Translations under genes and position numbers: made by a program
Shown: positions 13,337-19,645 of the stretch, in pieces
How the letters are laid out: each line of letters opens with the position of its first letter
How positions within the stretch are numbered: position 1 is the first letter of the stretch
Notes under the pieces: generated by a model
Databases searched by the model: none
What the model saw: only the letters and a program-made list of their open reading frames with translations
Told to the model about the DNA's origin: nothing
From: the human T2T-CHM13v2.0 reference genome, Homo sapiens
Strand: one strand, 5' to 3'
NCBI RefSeq assembly: GCF_009914755.1
Contig: NC_060936.1
DNA: 64,000 nucleotides

Positions 13337-13450
13337 GATGGAAACAAGAAGCTGATGATGGTAAAGAAGATGTAATATACAGCATCAACAGGGCCTGTAA
13401 AGAAGAGGCACTCACAAGTATTTTTAATGCATGTGACATCAAACGGAAAG
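13337..13450 (+). CDS. IRAG2: Coding exon 2 (GWKQEADD...EEALTSIFNACDIKRK); start of EF-hand 1
   Basis: ttttcttctaatag| ... AAG|GTAAGC, phase 1-1. Resembles KASH5 EEQILNSTFEACDPQRTG. Confidence 0.92.
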
Positions 13451-13874
13451 GTAAGCTAAAAATTATCTGTTTAAACATTTGGTAGGACTGTCCAAGTCAT
13501 CTGAACTTTCTATTGTGAGAGAAAGGGAAATGATTTGTGTGTGGGTCTCATTGTCTGCGTCTACATATGTGATGGATGCCACCTAATTTGGGAATAAGGT
13601 TTGCTCTGTAGGGCTTGGTTATTTCGTTATAATTTCCCTGTACCTGTTTTGCATCAGCATATTTTAACAGTGACTTGAATGATTCTTTTTGAGCTTATCA
13701 GCTGACTTACCATCTTTATTTATTGAAACTACTTACATGTCGTAGGTGGCGCCCCACAGGAAATATGCTTTTCAAATATGTAAAACCACTATACAAAATT
13801 TTAGTTAATTTTGGGCTTTCACTTCTGTTTTTCTTTAATTTTTATTTTTGAGATGTGTTTTTTAAAAAATTTCC

Positions 13875-14975
13875 AGACCTAAAACTACAAAAACCCTAGG
13901 AAATACCATTCTGGACATTGGCCTTGGCAAATAATTTATTAATAAGTTCCCAAAAGCAATTGCAACAAAACAAAAATTGACAAGCGGGACCTAATTAACC
14001 TCTGCACAGCAAAAGAAACTGTCAATAGAGTAAATAAACAATCTACAGAGAGGTAGAAGATATTCACAACCATGCATGTGACAAAAGTCTAACATCCAGA
14101 CTCTGTAAGAAACTTAAACAATTCAACAAACAAAAAATAACCTCATTAAAAAGTGGGCAAAGGACATGAACAGACACTTCTCAAAAGAAGACATACATGC
14201 AGCCAACAAATATATGAAAAAATACTCATCATTACTAATTATTAGAGAAATGCAAATCAAAACTGCAATGAGATACCATCTCACACCAGTCAGAATGGGT
14301 ACTATTAAAAAGTCAAAAACCAACAGATGTCGGTGAGGTTATCGAGAAAAGAGAACACTTACACATTGCTGGTGGGAATATAAATTAGTTCAGCCACTGT
14401 GGACAGCAGTGTGGAGATTCCTCAGAGAATTTAGAGCTACCATTTGAGCCAGCAATCTGTCCACTGGGTATGTACCCAAAGGAATGTAAATCATTCTACC
14501 TGAAAGACATATGCACTTATATGTTCATCACAGCACTGTTCACAATAGAAAAGACATGGAATCAACCCAAATGACCATGAACAGAAGACTGGATAAATAA
14601 AATGTGGTACCTACACACCATGGAATACTATGCAGCCAAAAAAACAAACAAGATCATGTCCTTTGCTGCAACATGGATGCAGCTGGAGGCTATTATCCTA
14701 AGCGAACTAATGCAGGAACAGAAAACCAAACACTGCATGTTCTCAATTTTAAGTGGGAGTTAGACATTGTATATACATGGAAACAAAGATGGGAACAATA
14801 GATATGGGGACTACTTGAGCAGGGAGGCATGGGCTGAAAAACTACCAGTCACATATTATGCTCAGTACGTGGGTGATGGGATCATTTGTACACTAAACCT
14901 CAGCAACACGCAATTTACTCATGTAGCAAACCTGCACATACACCCCCTGAACCTAAAAGTTGAGAGAAAAAAAAA
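13875..14975 (+). mobile_element. 5'-truncated L1 (old L1PA/L1PB 3' end)
   Basis: ORF2 C-terminal and 3' UTR motifs (gagataccatctcacaccagtcagaatgg, aacctgcacatacaccccctgaacctaaa). Confidence 0.9.
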
Positions 14976-15633
14976 TTCCACAAGTAATTTTAAGTATATA
15001 AATGATTCATGCTCATTTGTAATAAAATTAATAATATACTGACAAGCGAAAAGAAGGAAAAAAAATTGGTAATCCTGTTTCCCTGAGTAACCATTGTTAG
15101 TGACTTGTTGTATATCTTTCCACAATTCCTGTCAATATGGTTTTGTTTTATTTGAATTCATAATTGTTTGTTATAGAACATTTCAAACATATACAGAGGT
15201 AGAATTCTATGATGAATCCTTATGTATTTGTCATAACCAATTATGTCTCATTTCTAACCCTGCGCATTTTCCTCTCCTCTACTCTGGATTATTTTGAGGC
15301 AAATCGCAGAGATCATAGTATTTCATCCACAAATATTTCAGTACATATTTCTAAAAGATAATTGACTAATTTAAAACACAACTACAATGCCATTATCATG
15401 ATTTTAAAAGTAATATACTTTTCTAATATTATCAAATGTCTTGTTAGTAGTCAAAATTTCTCATTTGTGTGATAGATACATATCCTTTTTTTCTTAAACA
15501 GTTTTACTGTTCAAGCCAATATCCAAGAAATGTTTATTCATTGCAGTTTGTTGTCTGTCTTATCTCTGTGTTTCGCTTTCCATCTGTTTTTTGCATTTTG
15601 TTGTCTGTTAAAGAAACCCATCCATTGATTGAT

Positions 15634-15917
15634 TGAGACAGAGTCTCACTCTTGTCACCTAGGCCGGAGTGCAGTGGTGTGATCTTGGCTCACTGCAACC
15701 TCTGCCACCCGGGTTCAAGTGATTCTCCTGCCTCAGCCTCTCAAGTAGCTGGGATTACAGGCACCCACCACTACACCCAGCTAATTTTTGTATTTTTAGT
15801 AGAAATGGGGTTTCACCATGTTGGCCAGGCTAGTCTCGAACTCCTGACCTCAGGTGATCCACTCACCTCGGCTTCCCAAAGTGTTGGGATTACAGGTGTG
15901 AGCCACTGCACCCAGCC
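15634..15917 (-). mobile_element. Alu (Sx-like) inside an old L1M remnant
   Basis: Alu consensus. Confidence 0.9.
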
Positions 15918-16414
15918 CATTCTTTTATTTCACAGTTTACCACAATCTGAAATTTGGTGATTGTGTATCTGTAGGAACACAAGCTGTTTCTCTGTCTCCT
16001 ATGTTTAGAAATATGATCAGATAAAAGTTTGAGGGTTTTTATTTTATTTTTTTTTATTTTATGGGGGCAAGAATTCTAATAGGTTGGTACAAATGTGACT
16101 GCAGTTTTTAACCATTGAGAGTAATGGCAAAAACCACAACTACTTTTGCATCAACCTAAATACATAGATGGTGTTATGTGTTTTCAACAGAAGGAAACTA
16201 TTGATGATGAAGGCCTAGACCTATATTTTCATTAGATGTTGCAAATGGTAATATTCTATCATTCCTTCCTAATGTATCACCTGAAATACATCTATAATGA
16301 GAAACTCTATTCCGCGTTATGAACTATTTTGCTATACTGGTGTCCTGAAGGAGAGAGGCAGGATAAAAGCTTGATTGATTCTCTTTACCTACCAGTTTTA
16401 AAAATACTAAACTG

Positions 16415-17410: not shown

Positions 17411-17606
17411 CAAAACTATAATAAATATTTTACATATAAAATCACTGTATTGAACACTTGTAGCAAAATATTTGCATGTACCCTTATTTATTTCCTTAGG
17501 ATGAGTGGGGCTTATTTGTTCCCAGAGAGCTTCTCTGCTTGGACAGGATTTAAGAAAGTAATTCTCTGAAGAAAATAAGAAAGCTTCACTGATGGGAAAT
17601 GGGATG

Positions 17607-18161
17607 TGTATTAGCCAGGGCTCTCTGGTGGGAAGAGATATTTATATTTGTATCTGTCAATTTAATCTAGCTAGCTAAAGAGACTTATTATAAGGAATTG
17701 GGTCATGCGATCATGGAGGCGGGCAAGTCCCAAGATCTGCAGGATGTCAGCAAGCCAGGGATTCAGTAGATCCAACAGTTTGGTCCCATTCCAAGTCCAC
17801 AGGCCTAAGAACCAGGAGAGCTGCTGGTGCAGTTCCCATCCAAAAGCCAGCAGGCTTGAAGCAAGGAAGAGCCAACATTTCAATTCAAGTCTAGAAGCAG
17901 GAAAAAAAAAAATCAATGTCCCAGTTGGAAGGAAGGCAGGCAGGAGAGATTCTCTGTTACCTGGGAGAAGGTCAGCTTGTTTGTTCTATTCAGGCCTTCA
18001 ACTGGTTGGATGAGGCCCACCTGCACTAGATGGACAATCTGCTTTACTTGGTCTATAGATTTAAATGTTAATATCATCCAAAAATACCCTCAGAGAGAGA
18101 CCCAAAATAATGTATAACCAAATATGTAGGTACCCATTGATACATGAAATTAACCATTACA
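17607..18161 (-). mobile_element. Solo ERVL LTR (MLT2 family)
   Basis: tgtattagccaggg...gaaattaaccattaca with TG..CA ends; flanks ggatg/ggagg (4 of 5 TSD match). Confidence 0.75.
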
Positions 18162-18287
18162 GGAGGCCTTTCTAGTTTTGATATGACAGAGGGCTTAGAG
18201 TTTCAGTGGAGGAAAATATGATAAATGATTATTGCTGGCTTTCCAGCTTGCTTTCCAGTTCTTCTACAAATAAAATAATGCAATTCT

Positions 18288-18582
18288 CTGCTGGGTACAG
18301 TGACTCACACCTGTAATCTCAGCACTTTGGGAGGCCCAGGCAGGTGGATCCCTTAAGTCCAGAAGTTCAAGACCAGCCTGGGCAACATGGTGGAATCCCA
18401 TCTGTACAAAAAATACAAAAATTAGCTGGGTGTGGTGGCACATGCCTGTAGTCCCAGCTACTAGGGAGGCTGAGGTGGGAGGATTGCTTAAGCCCAAGAG
18501 ATTGAGGTTGCAGTGAACCAGGAGCATTCCAGCTGAGCAACATAGCAAGACCCTGTGTCAAAAAACAAACAAACAAAAAAAA
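18288..18582 (+). mobile_element. Alu
   Basis: Alu consensus. Confidence 0.9.
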
Positions 18583-19464
18583 CAGTTCTCTCTCTAAATA
18601 ACTGTATTAGTCATTTTATTTCTCTTTCTAATAGTGTCACATCTAAATGACATGTTAAGTTTAAATAATGTTAAAGTTATTAAAAACTTTGAAGTTATTC
18701 AGCCTCCTTTATGAGTATCTCCTCCTTCTAATTAAGAGACTTTTTTTTTTCTGATGTCATGGTCTATCCTTATTTCCTTAAGGGAAGAACCTTCTCTGTG
18801 GCATCTGCCCTCTCAAACTTCTACTTAATTTTTCCCTCTCCTTTGCAAGTAGCCAGCCCAAGGCAGGCCTTTGATGGGAGTAAAAGAAAAGTCTTATGTT
18901 TAAAAAAGATTGGTGTGTCAATGACTAACATAGTTTGGATGATTTTCTTTTCTGAATGTGATAGTAGGGATGACTGTCTAAAAATGCCTCCTCCACCCCC
19001 TAAAAAGTAGAAATTTTCACTTGAGATTGAAATTTTAACTAAAGTAGAGAAAAAAACTTCCTTCATTGAAGGCTTTTCAAGGAACTGAAAGGAAAAAATG
19101 TAATGTCATTTTGGTCACCTCCCACGAGAAATTATTGATTACATATATCATCAATATTTAAACCTCGCAACTCTGTGTGATAGGTATCATCGTCCCCATC
19201 TCAGATAAAGAAACAGGTTCAGAGAGGTTAATATTCCCAAAGCTACACAGCTGGTAATCTTCAGAGCCAAGATTTGACACTAGGTCCATTAGACTTTAGC
19301 CCAAGGCCAGTGTTCTTTACAATATACCATGCCAGCTCCGCAGGACTGCCAGGGTTATATATCATGTTTCTAGGATCAGGAAACATTAAAGAGATAGGTG
19401 CTTCACTTGTGAAAAATATAACTTTTCTGTCTTTCAGAACTGATCTGCTCTTCTTTTTCCAAAG

Positions 19465-19645
19465 GCTCAGTCGGAGTGGCCAAAATAATCAATTTCCTGA
19501 GACAAACAACTAGCCAAAATTCTGAAGACAGTGGCCTTGAGCAGTTGTGGAACATGCTTGATCCTGAGAAGAGAGACCCACATGTGGACCTGGAAACTTT
19601 CCAGGCCATGATGAAAGACTGGATGGCTTACTGTGGAAACACATG
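19465..19645 (+). CDS. IRAG2: Coding exon 3 (GSVGVAKIINFLRQTTSQNSEDSGLEQLWNMLDPEKRDPHVDLETFQAMMKDWMAYCGNT); EF-hand pair
   Basis: ttctttttccaaag| ... ATG|GTAATC, phase 1-2. Resembles KASH5 ...LDPNGEGPKATVDLDTFLVVMRDWIAAC. Confidence 0.93.

What the first reader, a model, noticed from the sequence alone, without database searches (positions are those of the whole stretch)
13400..19645. Degenerate, probably Ca2+-independent EF-hand pair of the dynein-LIC-binding type
Loop 1 DIKRKGSVGVAK keeps D1, G6 and hydrophobic 8 but has Lys at positions 3, 5 and 12. Loop 2 DPEKRDPHVDLETF is elongated and non-canonical. KASH5, ninein and FIP3-class adaptors use EF-hand pairs to bind the dynein light intermediate chain helix. 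Inference: same role here without Ca2+ gating, on a protein whose short form regulates IP3 receptors.
Basis: partly seen in the sequence, partly recalled or inferred. Interest (0 to 1): 0.7.

Follow-up and report, generated by a model that had tools for sequence, protein, structure and literature searches.

The report
KASH5-type EF-hand pair in IRAG2
These two exons encode a calcium-blind EF-hand pair, sister to the one KASH5 uses to grip the dynein motor, at the front of a long and almost unstudied form of human IRAG2.

Summary
Exons 13337-13450 and 19465-19645 encode DIKRK|G|SVGVAK (loop 1, split by the intron) and DPEKRDPHVDLETF (loop 2). The pair belongs to Pfam EF-hand_9, the KASH5 family (55.4 bits, cut-off 37). 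A KASH_CCD coiled coil (E 6.5e-44) and a Spindly-like LHYEL motif follow it, colinear with KASH5 over about 350 residues (E 2e-38).

The window's exons reproduce the 766-residue RefSeq protein "LOC645177". In the human genome they also splice, open, into the canonical IRAG2 start. That is the architecture of about 1450-residue IRAG2 models from sawfish to primates, matching what a 2013 paper describes for zebrafish Futile cycle/Lrmp.

KASH5 residues whose mutation kills dynein binding (L77, F97, M101, and V54, the fue site) are kept. No family member (0 of 163) has a canonical Ca2+ ligand set.

Caveats: several pocket residues differ from KASH5, and the EF pair evolves faster in mammals than in other vertebrates.

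Published papers I read treat mammalian LRMP as lacking this N-terminus. I rate it a new member of a known kind, of moderate interest.

The parts
12404..13011 (+). First coding exon of the long form. ATG at 12438, residues 1-191, with a conserved N-terminal motif around residues 10-30.
   Evidence: No Pfam match. Single copy in the human assembly.
13337..13450 (+). Exon for residues 192-229 plus the first base of G230. It holds the entering helix of EF-hand 1 and loop 1 positions 1-5 (D225-K229 = 13435-13449).
19465..19645 (+). Exon for residues 230-289 plus two bases of W290. It holds loop 1 positions 6-12 (to 19484), the exiting helix of EF-hand 1, and all of EF-hand 2.
   Evidence: Pfam EF-hand_9 43.2 bits on this exon alone. 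Own-genome scan 46.3 bits.
19560..19601 (+). Loop 2, DPEKRDPHVDLETF (D262-F275), elongated by one residue and lacking the position-12 Glu.
19438..19464 (+). 27 in-frame bases behind an upstream AG (19436-19437). If that acceptor is used, 9 residues (ELICSSFSK) are inserted into loop 1.
   Evidence: This form appears in Old World monkey models P0005, P0007 and P0009.
23276..23522 (+). Two linker exons (23276-23355 and 23444-23522), residues 291-342, between the EF pair and the coiled coil.
25229..40466 (+). Seven exons of the KASH5-type coiled coil (Pfam KASH_CCD, residues 344-532): 25229-25387, 28888-29005, 31968-32018, 34886-34963, 38375-38431, 40239-40298, 40402-40466.
41942..42041 (+). Exon carrying the Spindly-like motif LHYEL (L561-L565 = 42006-42020).
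   Evidence: Motif consensus taken from passages of 10.64898/2026.04.25.720804.
43747..46231 (+). Three further coding exons (43747-43881, 44679-44780, 46068-46231), residues 573-705.
60320..60503 (+). Exon with two uses. Read through to the stop at 60501-60503, it ends the 766-residue protein. Spliced at 60434|GT, it continues the long form.
   Evidence: One difference from the RefSeq protein, R730S at 60390-60392.
60879..61041 (+). Coding use, in the long form, of what is the non-coding first exon (60791-61041) of the selected short transcript. It reads GKDRDREAH... in frame.
   Evidence: Exon 60791-61041 is from the hub's annotation.

Best explanation
The two exons encode the EF-hand pair (Pfam EF-hand_9) of a KASH5-like N-terminal extension of human IRAG2 (LRMP/Jaw1). 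This extension matches the N-terminal extension that PMC3787381 describes for zebrafish Futile cycle/Lrmp, and it is a paralogue of the dynein-binding half of KASH5.

Shown: the domain identity, the degenerate loops, colinearity with KASH5, the shared intron positions, and an open human reading frame running into the canonical IRAG2 start.

Inferred: the Ca2+-free EF pair offers a hydrophobic groove that takes up helix 1 of the dynein light intermediate chain. The roughly 190-residue coiled coil and the LHYEL (Spindly-like) motif then hold dynein and dynactin together. The distant C-terminus (IP3-receptor-binding coiled coil, membrane anchor, KASH tail) fixes the motor to the ER and outer nuclear membrane. 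A 766-residue product lacking the anchor would be a soluble version of the same dynein-binding module.
For: Domain identity. P0004, which the window's exons reproduce with 765 of 766 residues identical through a unique GT-AG solution, has EF-hand_9 at 219-282 (55.4 bits, cut-off 37) and KASH_CCD at 344-532 (E 6.5e-44). Named KASH5 has the same two domains.

Colinearity and gene structure. P0004 193-548 aligns colinearly with KASH5 18-364 (29% identity, E 2e-38). The KASH5 gene has the same phase-1 intron inside the Gly-6 codon of loop 1 and the same end phase of the next exon. The exons are 187 and 181 nt, and the 6 nt match KASH5's two extra loop-2 residues.

Functional residues. Passages of PMC9242646 name nine KASH5 pocket residues, with L77D, F97D and M101D the worst. 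Passages of PMC10071310 place the zebrafish fue mutation at the residue equal to KASH5 V54. In 30 long IRAG2 sequences these are L 30/30, F 18 or Y 12 of 30, M 29/30, and V 28 or I 2 of 30. The human residues are L257, F275, M279 and V234.

Ca2+ independence. 0 of 163 family sequences have canonical ligands in either loop, and all have an insertion in loop 2. KASH5 binds no Ca2+ and binds LIC with or without it.

Adaptor features. L-x-x-E-L/M is present in 63 of 68 long IRAG2 rows (5 are gapped). It lies 214 residues after the coiled-coil start, against 212 in KASH5.

Constraint. In 18 non-mammalian long forms the EF pair is the best conserved region (79% mean pairwise identity, against 52% for the coiled coil).

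Link to the rest of IRAG2. Human exons splice without a stop from 60320-60434 through 60879-61041 and five further exons to the canonical start MNDDPSMEE. Long orthologues carry EF-hand_9 + KASH_CCD + MRVI1. PMC3787381 states that Fue binds dynein and is needed for pronuclear migration.
Against: No binding, fold or complex was computed or measured.

Five of the nine KASH5 pocket positions differ in long IRAG2: T40 to I, V64 to T, R73 to G, L98 to H/Q, and I36 to L/V/A, with A in human. In KASH5 all nine Asp substitutions impaired binding to some degree.

In 48 mammalian sequences the EF pair (71% mean pairwise identity) is less conserved than the coiled coil (80%). It is also less conserved than among the far more distant non-mammals (79%). 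Human departs from the mammalian consensus at ten positions, including D239N, Y240F and L216A. This may mean relaxed constraint in mammals.

Seven of 69 long-form models lack an EF-hand_9 call.

I have no expression data for the long form.
Confidence: 0.65

Rival explanations
1. The fold is kept, but in placental mammals, and in humans in particular, the EF pair is a relaxed or repurposed remnant. It no longer binds LIC usefully. It serves another partner, an intramolecular contact, or only the folding of the N-terminal module. KASH5 carries the dynein function.
For: The EF pair evolves faster than the coiled coil in mammals (71% against 80%), whereas it is the most conserved part in non-mammals (79% against 52%). 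There are ten human departures from the mammalian consensus, two of them at positions equal to KASH5 pocket residues (A216, F240). Five of nine pocket positions differ from KASH5. An in-frame alternative acceptor would put 9 residues into loop 1. Lrmp-null mice are reported fertile.
Against: The most damaging KASH5 positions and the fue valine are kept. The clade-specific pocket residues (I, T, G, H/Q) are already present in the distant vertebrate sequences, so they are not a mammalian decay. The EF pair is still better conserved in mammals than either flanking linker (71% against 58-60%). No frame disruption is seen in any of the 16 species rows inspected.
Confidence: 0.2
2. The upstream exons are a gene-model artefact or noise transcription. 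No stable protein with this EF pair is made in humans, and the open frame is an inherited leftover.
For: Every paper read treats human LRMP/JAW1 as the 555-residue form. One paper holds the name LOC645177, and it is an unrelated study. No expression data could be consulted here.
Against: Seventeen exons with canonical splice sites give an uninterrupted 766-codon frame, and eight more junction-checked exons stay open into the canonical start. The same architecture is modelled in 69 proteins from many mammals, a newt and a sawfish. Region-specific conservation (domains above linkers) is what purifying selection on a protein gives. The source names the human protein with a curated-style NP_ accession.
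Confidence: 0.1
3. The pair is a working Ca2+ sensor that couples IP3-receptor Ca2+ release to the protein's activity.
For: It sits in a gene whose short product modulates IP3 receptors. Loop 2 keeps acidic residues at positions 1, 3 and 9.
Against: Loop 1 has Lys at positions 3, 5 and 12 and Gly at 9. Loop 2 has Arg at 5, Thr at 12 and an insertion. None of 163 relatives is canonical. The paralogue KASH5 showed no Ca2+ binding by ITC.
Confidence: 0.03

Closest known systems
KASH5 (CCDC155), the meiotic transmembrane dynein activating adaptor
   Same: Same two Pfam domains in the same order (EF-hand_9, KASH_CCD). Colinear over about 350 residues. Same intron positions and phases around the EF exon. 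Both have degenerate loops. L77, F97, M101 and V54 are conserved. A Spindly-like motif lies at the same distance from the coiled-coil start. Both are tail-anchored with a PPPV-type KASH end in the full-length form.
   Different: Long IRAG2 has an extra 190-residue N-terminal region. It also has about 900 further residues, including the MRVI1 (IP3-receptor-binding) domain. Loop 2 is two residues shorter. Five pocket positions differ. The two groups separate on one branch of a quick tree (SH-aLRT 100, 21 against 18 rows; spans were unequal and I assigned the labels by architecture). No experiment exists for the human long form.
Zebrafish Futile cycle (Fue)/Lrmp
   Same: PMC3787381 describes Fue as the LRMP homologue with an enlarged N-terminus similar to KASH5 over about 330 residues. 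It says Fue binds dynein and is needed for pronuclear migration. The unnamed 1539- and 1563-residue sequences P0043 and P0045 share the human architecture. The fue mutation maps to the valine kept as human V234.
   Different: I could not read the original paper, which is not held. I did not obtain a sequence named as zebrafish Fue. The same paper states that this N-terminus is absent from human and mouse LRMP, and the human exons shown here contradict that.
Other EF-hand dynein adaptors (CRACR2A, Rab45, ninein/ninein-like, RAB11FIP3)
   Same: Same layout: an N-terminal EF-hand pair, a long coiled coil, and a Spindly-type motif (passages). FIP3, Rab45 and ninein-like also act without Ca2+.
   Different: No specific sequence kinship was found. 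The family profile's best solved-structure matches are calmodulin, troponin C and the like, and no dynein adaptor is among the 60 listed of 235. CRACR2A needs Ca2+. This is a likeness of working, not of family.
Short IRAG2/LRMP/Jaw1 (555 residues), IP3-receptor regulator and KASH protein
   Same: Same gene. The long form reads into the short form's start codon and shares its MRVI1 domain, membrane anchor and KASH tail.
   Different: The short form starts downstream of the window. It has neither the EF pair nor the KASH5-type coiled coil.

Membership tests
Pfam EF-hand_9 (PF14658), the KASH5-type EF-hand pair | Score above the curated gathering cut-off (37 bits) | tested here: met
   55.4 bits on P0004. 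43.2 bits on the second exon alone. 46.3 bits in the genome scan.
Pfam EF-hand_9 (PF14658), the KASH5-type EF-hand pair | Followed by the KASH5-type coiled coil (PF14662) | tested here: met
   KASH_CCD at 344-532, E 6.5e-44. Named KASH5 has the same pair of domains.
Pfam EF-hand_9 (PF14658), the KASH5-type EF-hand pair | Gene structure shared with KASH5 | tested here: met
   Phase-1 intron in the loop-1 Gly codon in both genes, and the same end phase of the next exon.
Canonical Ca2+-binding EF-hand | Loop ligands: D at position 1, D/N/S at 3 and 5, G at 6, E at 12, in a 12-residue loop (pattern recalled from general knowledge) | tested here: not met
   Loop 1 has K, K, K at positions 3, 5, 12. 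Loop 2 has R at 5, D at 6, T at 12 and one inserted residue. 0 of 163 relatives are canonical.
EF-hand pair fold (calmodulin-lobe type) | Homology over a whole two-EF-hand lobe | tested here: met
   The profile of A1 matches calmodulin 4-84 and troponin C lobes, E 5e-6 to 2e-4. hhalign gives 86.3% probability, E 4.8e-6, over 78 columns against a calmodulin-like protein.
EF-hand class of dynein activating adaptors | The EF pair binds LIC helix 1 through the F447/F448 face | not testable with these tools
   The complex predictor was unavailable, so no result. The LIC1 helix-1 exon was located (L022:1507-1659) for later use.
EF-hand class of dynein activating adaptors | Residues needed for dynein binding in the nearest characterised member are kept | tested here: met
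   L77, F97, M101 and V54 of KASH5 equal L257, F275, M279 and V234. Across 30 long IRAG2 sequences they are kept in 30/30, 30/30 (F or Y), 29/30 and 30/30 (V or I). Five other pocket positions differ.
EF-hand class of dynein activating adaptors | Long coiled coil, then a Spindly motif (J-x-x-E-hydrophobic) | tested here: met
   KASH_CCD. LHYEL at 561-565, present in 63 of 68 rows. Spacing 214 residues against 212 in KASH5. This is sequence evidence only.
EF-hand class of dynein activating adaptors | Activates processive dynein-dynactin motility | not testable with these tools
   Needs single-molecule assays.
KASH proteins (LINC complex) | C-terminal membrane span and luminal tail ending in PPPV | tested here: met
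   This lies outside the window. Long orthologues end ...NGPPPV. The human last exon matches P0005 1375-1454 at 97.5%. SUN1 binding of the human tail is in print (PMC10827754).

The most novel reading that the evidence does not exclude
Humans and most placental mammals keep a second transmembrane EF-hand dynein activating adaptor, long IRAG2. It joins three things in one chain: a KASH5-type dynein-dynactin recruiting module, the IP3-receptor-binding coiled coil, and a SUN-binding KASH tail. It would be the mammalian counterpart of zebrafish Futile cycle. That makes it a candidate for the unidentified nuclear-envelope dynein anchor in centrosome-nucleus attachment and pronuclear migration of human and bovine zygotes, a role so far assigned by default to KASH5. 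If murid rodents lack it, the mouse knock-out data would not speak to this question.
Probability: 0.3. Interest if true: 0.8.

Novelty: new member of a known kind. Interest (0 to 1): 0.55.

Why it matters
The papers I read on LINC complexes and dynein adaptors count KASH5 as the only mammalian KASH protein that is itself a dynein activating adaptor. They describe mammalian LRMP/JAW1/IRAG2 as a short protein of lymphoid, taste and secretory cells. One paper says outright that the Fue-type N-terminus is absent from human and mouse LRMP.

The human genome nevertheless holds that N-terminus intact, in frame with the rest of IRAG2, and with the residues that matter in KASH5. If the module works, there is a second membrane-anchored dynein adaptor to consider in fertilisation, nuclear positioning and ER or Golgi positioning, and it is physically tied to an IP3-receptor regulator.

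It also gives a simple set of point mutants and a peptide-binding assay to settle the matter. If it does not work, it is a clean example of a domain being released from constraint after gene duplication.

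Tried and rejected
Each retry came after the stated wait, and then I stopped. No model means no fold search.

The protein atlas could not read the sequence.

The original zebrafish fue paper (PMC3360835) is not held. Its content is known to me only through citing passages.

Single-sequence searches of solved structures gave a 24-residue likeness to ZYG11B as best hits (E 4e-4 and 6e-3). It covers only the stretch between the two EF-hands and loop 2 and lies in an unrelated repeat protein, so I take it as chance. No solved chain of the EF-hand_9 family turned up.

Literature searches for a mammalian long form, or for an EF-hand in LRMP/IRAG2/Jaw1, found no paper that describes it. 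The library lacks most subscription journals, and I opened no supplements.

A first greedy and a first exact exon-boundary script failed because of the single R730S difference. Allowing one mismatch gave a unique solution.

Whether mouse and rat have the long form could not be tested. 0 of 69 hits to the first coding exon are from Mus or Rattus, but squirrels, marmots and mole-rats are present, and the tool warns that absence is weak evidence.

The careful tree did not finish, so only the quick tree is reported.

I looked for no HBS1 (heavy-chain-binding) motif, because I had no reliable definition for this family.

Full report
**What is in the sequence**

The window is the 5' part of human IRAG2 (LRMP/Jaw1). 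Exon 13337-13450 translates, in the frame set by the ATG at 12438, to WKQEADDGKEDVIYSINRACKEEALTSIFNACDIKRK. Exon 19465-19645 translates to SVGVAKIINFLRQTTSQNSEDSGLEQLWNMLDPEKRDPHVDLETFQAMMKDWMAYCGNT. The Gly between them is a split codon (g|gc).
- Loop 1 (D225-K236) straddles the intron: 13435-13450 plus 19465-19484.
- Loop 2 (D262-F275) is 19560-19601.

Joining the eleven exons listed in the hub's annotation gives 517 codons without a stop. A search over nearby AG/GT sites finds one and only one set of boundaries for six further exons. That set reproduces a 766-residue database protein, P0004. Its source names it NP_001308653.2, "uncharacterized protein LOC645177 [Homo sapiens]". It differs at one residue, R730S.

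**What it is**

The second exon alone matches Pfam EF-hand_9 at 43.2 bits (cut-off 37, E 5.3e-11). P0004 has three matches:
- EF-hand_9 at 219-282 (55.4 bits).
- KASH_CCD, "coiled-coil region of CCDC155 or KASH", at 344-532 (E 6.5e-44).
- A sub-threshold, full-length match to the generic EF-hand pair model.

A family profile (alignment A1, 15 sequences) aligns over an entire calmodulin or troponin C lobe (E 5e-6 to 2e-4). hhalign against a calmodulin-like protein taken from the same genome gives 86% probability over 78 columns. Scanning the whole human assembly with EF-hand_9 gives 9 matches. Three are flagged as over the cut-off: the KASH5 locus (80.5 bits), this exon (46.3 bits) and one marginal hit. 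So this is the KASH5 type of EF-hand pair, and humans have two clear copies of it.

**Relation to KASH5**

- P0004 193-548 aligns colinearly with a named KASH5 (macaque P0256) 18-364, at 29% identity and E 2e-38.
- In the human KASH5 locus the exon before the EF exon ends ...CDPQRT g|gt and the next begins ag|gc ACT GTG. That is the same phase-1 intron in the Gly-6 codon of loop 1.
- Both EF exons end with two bases of a split codon. They are 187 and 181 nt long, and the 6 nt match KASH5's two extra loop-2 residues.
- A quick tree of 21 long IRAG2 and 18 KASH5-like rows separates them on one branch (SH-aLRT 100), with a sawfish IRAG2 at the base of its group. The careful search did not finish, the spans were unequal, and I set the labels by architecture. 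I use the tree only as consistent with an old duplication.

**Relation to the rest of IRAG2**

Proteins of about 1450 residues named IRAG2 or LRMP, from primates, carnivores, bats, ungulates, squirrels, mole-rats, armadillo, aardvark, a newt and a sawfish, carry EF-hand_9 + KASH_CCD + MRVI1 and end in the KASH tail ...NGPPPV.

In the human genome, exon 60320-60434 has a GT donor right after ...VEEQ. It joins in frame to 60879-61041, which is the non-coding first exon of the selected short transcript. Five further exons downstream of the window (69680-69741, 70908-70988, 71811-71904, 74454-74601, 77439-77520, in window-extended numbering) continue the frame without a stop into MNDDPSMEE. That string matches the canonical LRMP start used in the cloning primer of PMC3787381.

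The gene can therefore encode two products: the soluble 766-residue protein, and a full-length membrane-anchored long form.

**How it most likely works**

Passages of PMC9242646 show the following for KASH5:
- Its EF pair plus coiled coil binds LIC helix 1 with Kd 4.3 uM.
- CaCl2 and EGTA give very similar dissociation constants, and no Ca2+ binding is seen.
- LIC F447A/F448A abolishes the complex.
- Nine pocket residues (I36, T40, Y60, V64, R73, L77, F97, L98, M101) matter, with L77D, F97D and M101D the worst.

Passages of PMC10071310 add three points. Dynein recruitment is Ca2+-independent in cells. The zebrafish fue mutation corresponds to KASH5 V54E and weakens dynein binding. A potential Spindly motif lies at 371-376.

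All ten of these named residues match the letters at the same numbers in macaque P0256, so the numbering carries over. Across 30 long IRAG2 sequences the equivalents are:

| KASH5 residue | Long IRAG2 (of 30) | Human |
|---|---|---|
| L77 | L 30 | L257 |
| F97 | F 18, Y 12 | F275 |
| M101 | M 29 | M279 |
| V54 | V 28, I 2 | V234 |
| Y60 | Y 22, F 7 | F240 |

The other pocket positions are replaced in a clade-specific but conserved way: I for T40, T for V64, G for R73, H/Q for L98.

A motif fitting the updated Spindly consensus (J-x-x-E-hydrophobic; 10.64898/2026.04.25.720804) is present as LHYEL at 561-565. It is found in 63 of 68 long IRAG2 rows (5 are gapped). It lies 214 residues after the coiled-coil start, against 212 in KASH5.

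I infer the KASH5 mechanism: the groove of a Ca2+-free EF pair takes LIC helix 1, the coiled coil and motif hold dynein and dynactin, and the C-terminus supplies the cargo (ER and outer nuclear membrane, SUN proteins, IP3 receptors). [quoted passage not shown]

**Calcium**

Aligned to calmodulin, loop 1 reads D-I-K-R-K-G-S-V-G-V-A-K (positions 3, 5 and 12 are Lys, 9 is Gly). Loop 2 reads D-P-E-K-R-D-[P]-H-V-D-L-E-T (5 is Arg, 6 is Asp, 12 is Thr, with one inserted residue). Among 163 family sequences (30 long IRAG2, 54 non-redundant named KASH5, 79 others), none has a canonical ligand set in either loop. All have 2 or 4 residues where canonical loops have 1. The degeneracy is family-wide and old.

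**Evidence that cuts the other way**

- In 18 non-mammalian long forms the EF pair is the best conserved region (79% mean pairwise identity; coiled coil 52%). In 48 mammalian ones it is 71%, against 80% for the coiled coil. It is still above the linkers (58-60%).
- Human departs from the mammalian consensus at ten positions in or beside the domain, including N239 (D in 39 of 44), F240 (Y in 37 of 44) and A216 (L in 27 of 42). This looks like relaxed constraint, or a changed partner, in mammals.
- Seven of 69 long-form models lack an EF-hand_9 call.
- An upstream AG at 19436-19437 would add 27 in-frame bases and put ELICSSFSK into loop 1. Old World monkey models use it.
- PMC3787381 mentions, as unpublished, that Lrmp-null mice are fertile. 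No Mus or Rattus protein is among the 69 hits to the first coding exon, which is weak evidence of absence.
- I have no expression data.

**What is known and what is new**

The domain calls are already attached to these proteins in public databases (precomputed Pfam columns), and one source even names a pig protein "KASH5-like coiled-coil domain-containing protein". So the identity of the domain is not a discovery.

In print, however, every paper I could read treats mammalian LRMP/JAW1/IRAG2 as the short protein. PMC3787381 says the Fue-type N-terminus is absent from human and mouse LRMP and proposes loss of the 5' exons. The other papers make no mention of a long form or an EF-hand:
- the SUN1-KASH6 structure paper;
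- a 2023 IRAG review;
- a 2025 KASH review that does not mention JAW1 at all;
- two 2026 reviews.

Nine searches found no paper describing it. These were passages and listings, not whole texts. Subscription journals are largely missing from the library, and I opened no supplements.

I therefore file it as a new, untested member of a known kind: the EF-hand class of dynein adaptors, KASH5 family.

**What could not be done**

I located the LIC1 helix-1 exon in the genome (L022:1507-1659, minus strand) so the test can be run later.

**Verdict**

My confidence is about 0.95 for the domain identity and about 0.65 for LIC binding by the human protein.

Noticed in passing
window 19438-19464: An upstream AG (19436-19437) precedes 27 in-frame bases. 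Using it inserts ELICSSFSK between loop-1 positions 5 and 6. Old World monkey IRAG2 models (P0005, P0007, P0009) contain this insertion, and the human annotation lists only 19465. EF-hand_9 still scores 47.5 bits on the extended exon peptide.
   Followed up: partly
window 12438-12620 (residues 1-60): The first 60 residues, including ...RHNPVESICRKIRAI..., are about as conserved as the coiled coil: 83% identity to human in 47 mammals and 49% in 18 distant vertebrates. They have no Pfam match and no second copy in the human genome. KASH5 lacks this region. Function unknown.
   Followed up: partly
window 60320-60503 and 60879-61041: The last exon of the 766-residue protein and the next long-form exon lie in the promoter and first-exon region of the short transcript, under two RefSeq 'enhancer' marks (60144-60253, 60296-60665). 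The short form's 5'UTR exon is coding in the long form. This assembly reads Ser where the RefSeq protein has Arg730 (60390-60392).
   Followed up: partly
alignment of long IRAG2 proteins: The EF pair is the most conserved region among non-mammalian vertebrates, but it evolves faster than the coiled coil in placental mammals, and human carries ten departures from the mammalian consensus.
   Followed up: partly
one search hit list: Mole-rat (Fukomys, Heterocephalus) long forms are only 42% identical to human in the first exon, against 60-80% for other placentals. No Mus or Rattus protein appears. Seven of 69 models carry KASH_CCD without an EF-hand_9 call (rhinoceros, fruit bat, pangolin, a Myotis, rabbit, mole, wild camel).
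   Followed up: no
window 19518-19589 (residues 248-271): A 24-residue stretch (NSEDSGLEQLWNMLDPEKRDPHVD) resembles a stretch of ZYG11B in solved structures (E 4e-4 to 6e-3). I take it as chance.
   Followed up: partly
window 5561-5714: According to the hub's table, the long transcripts' first exon (5671-5714) and LINC02909 (ending at 5561 on the minus strand) start about 110 bases apart, head to head. G+C there is only about 0.5, so it is not a strong CpG island.
   Followed up: partly
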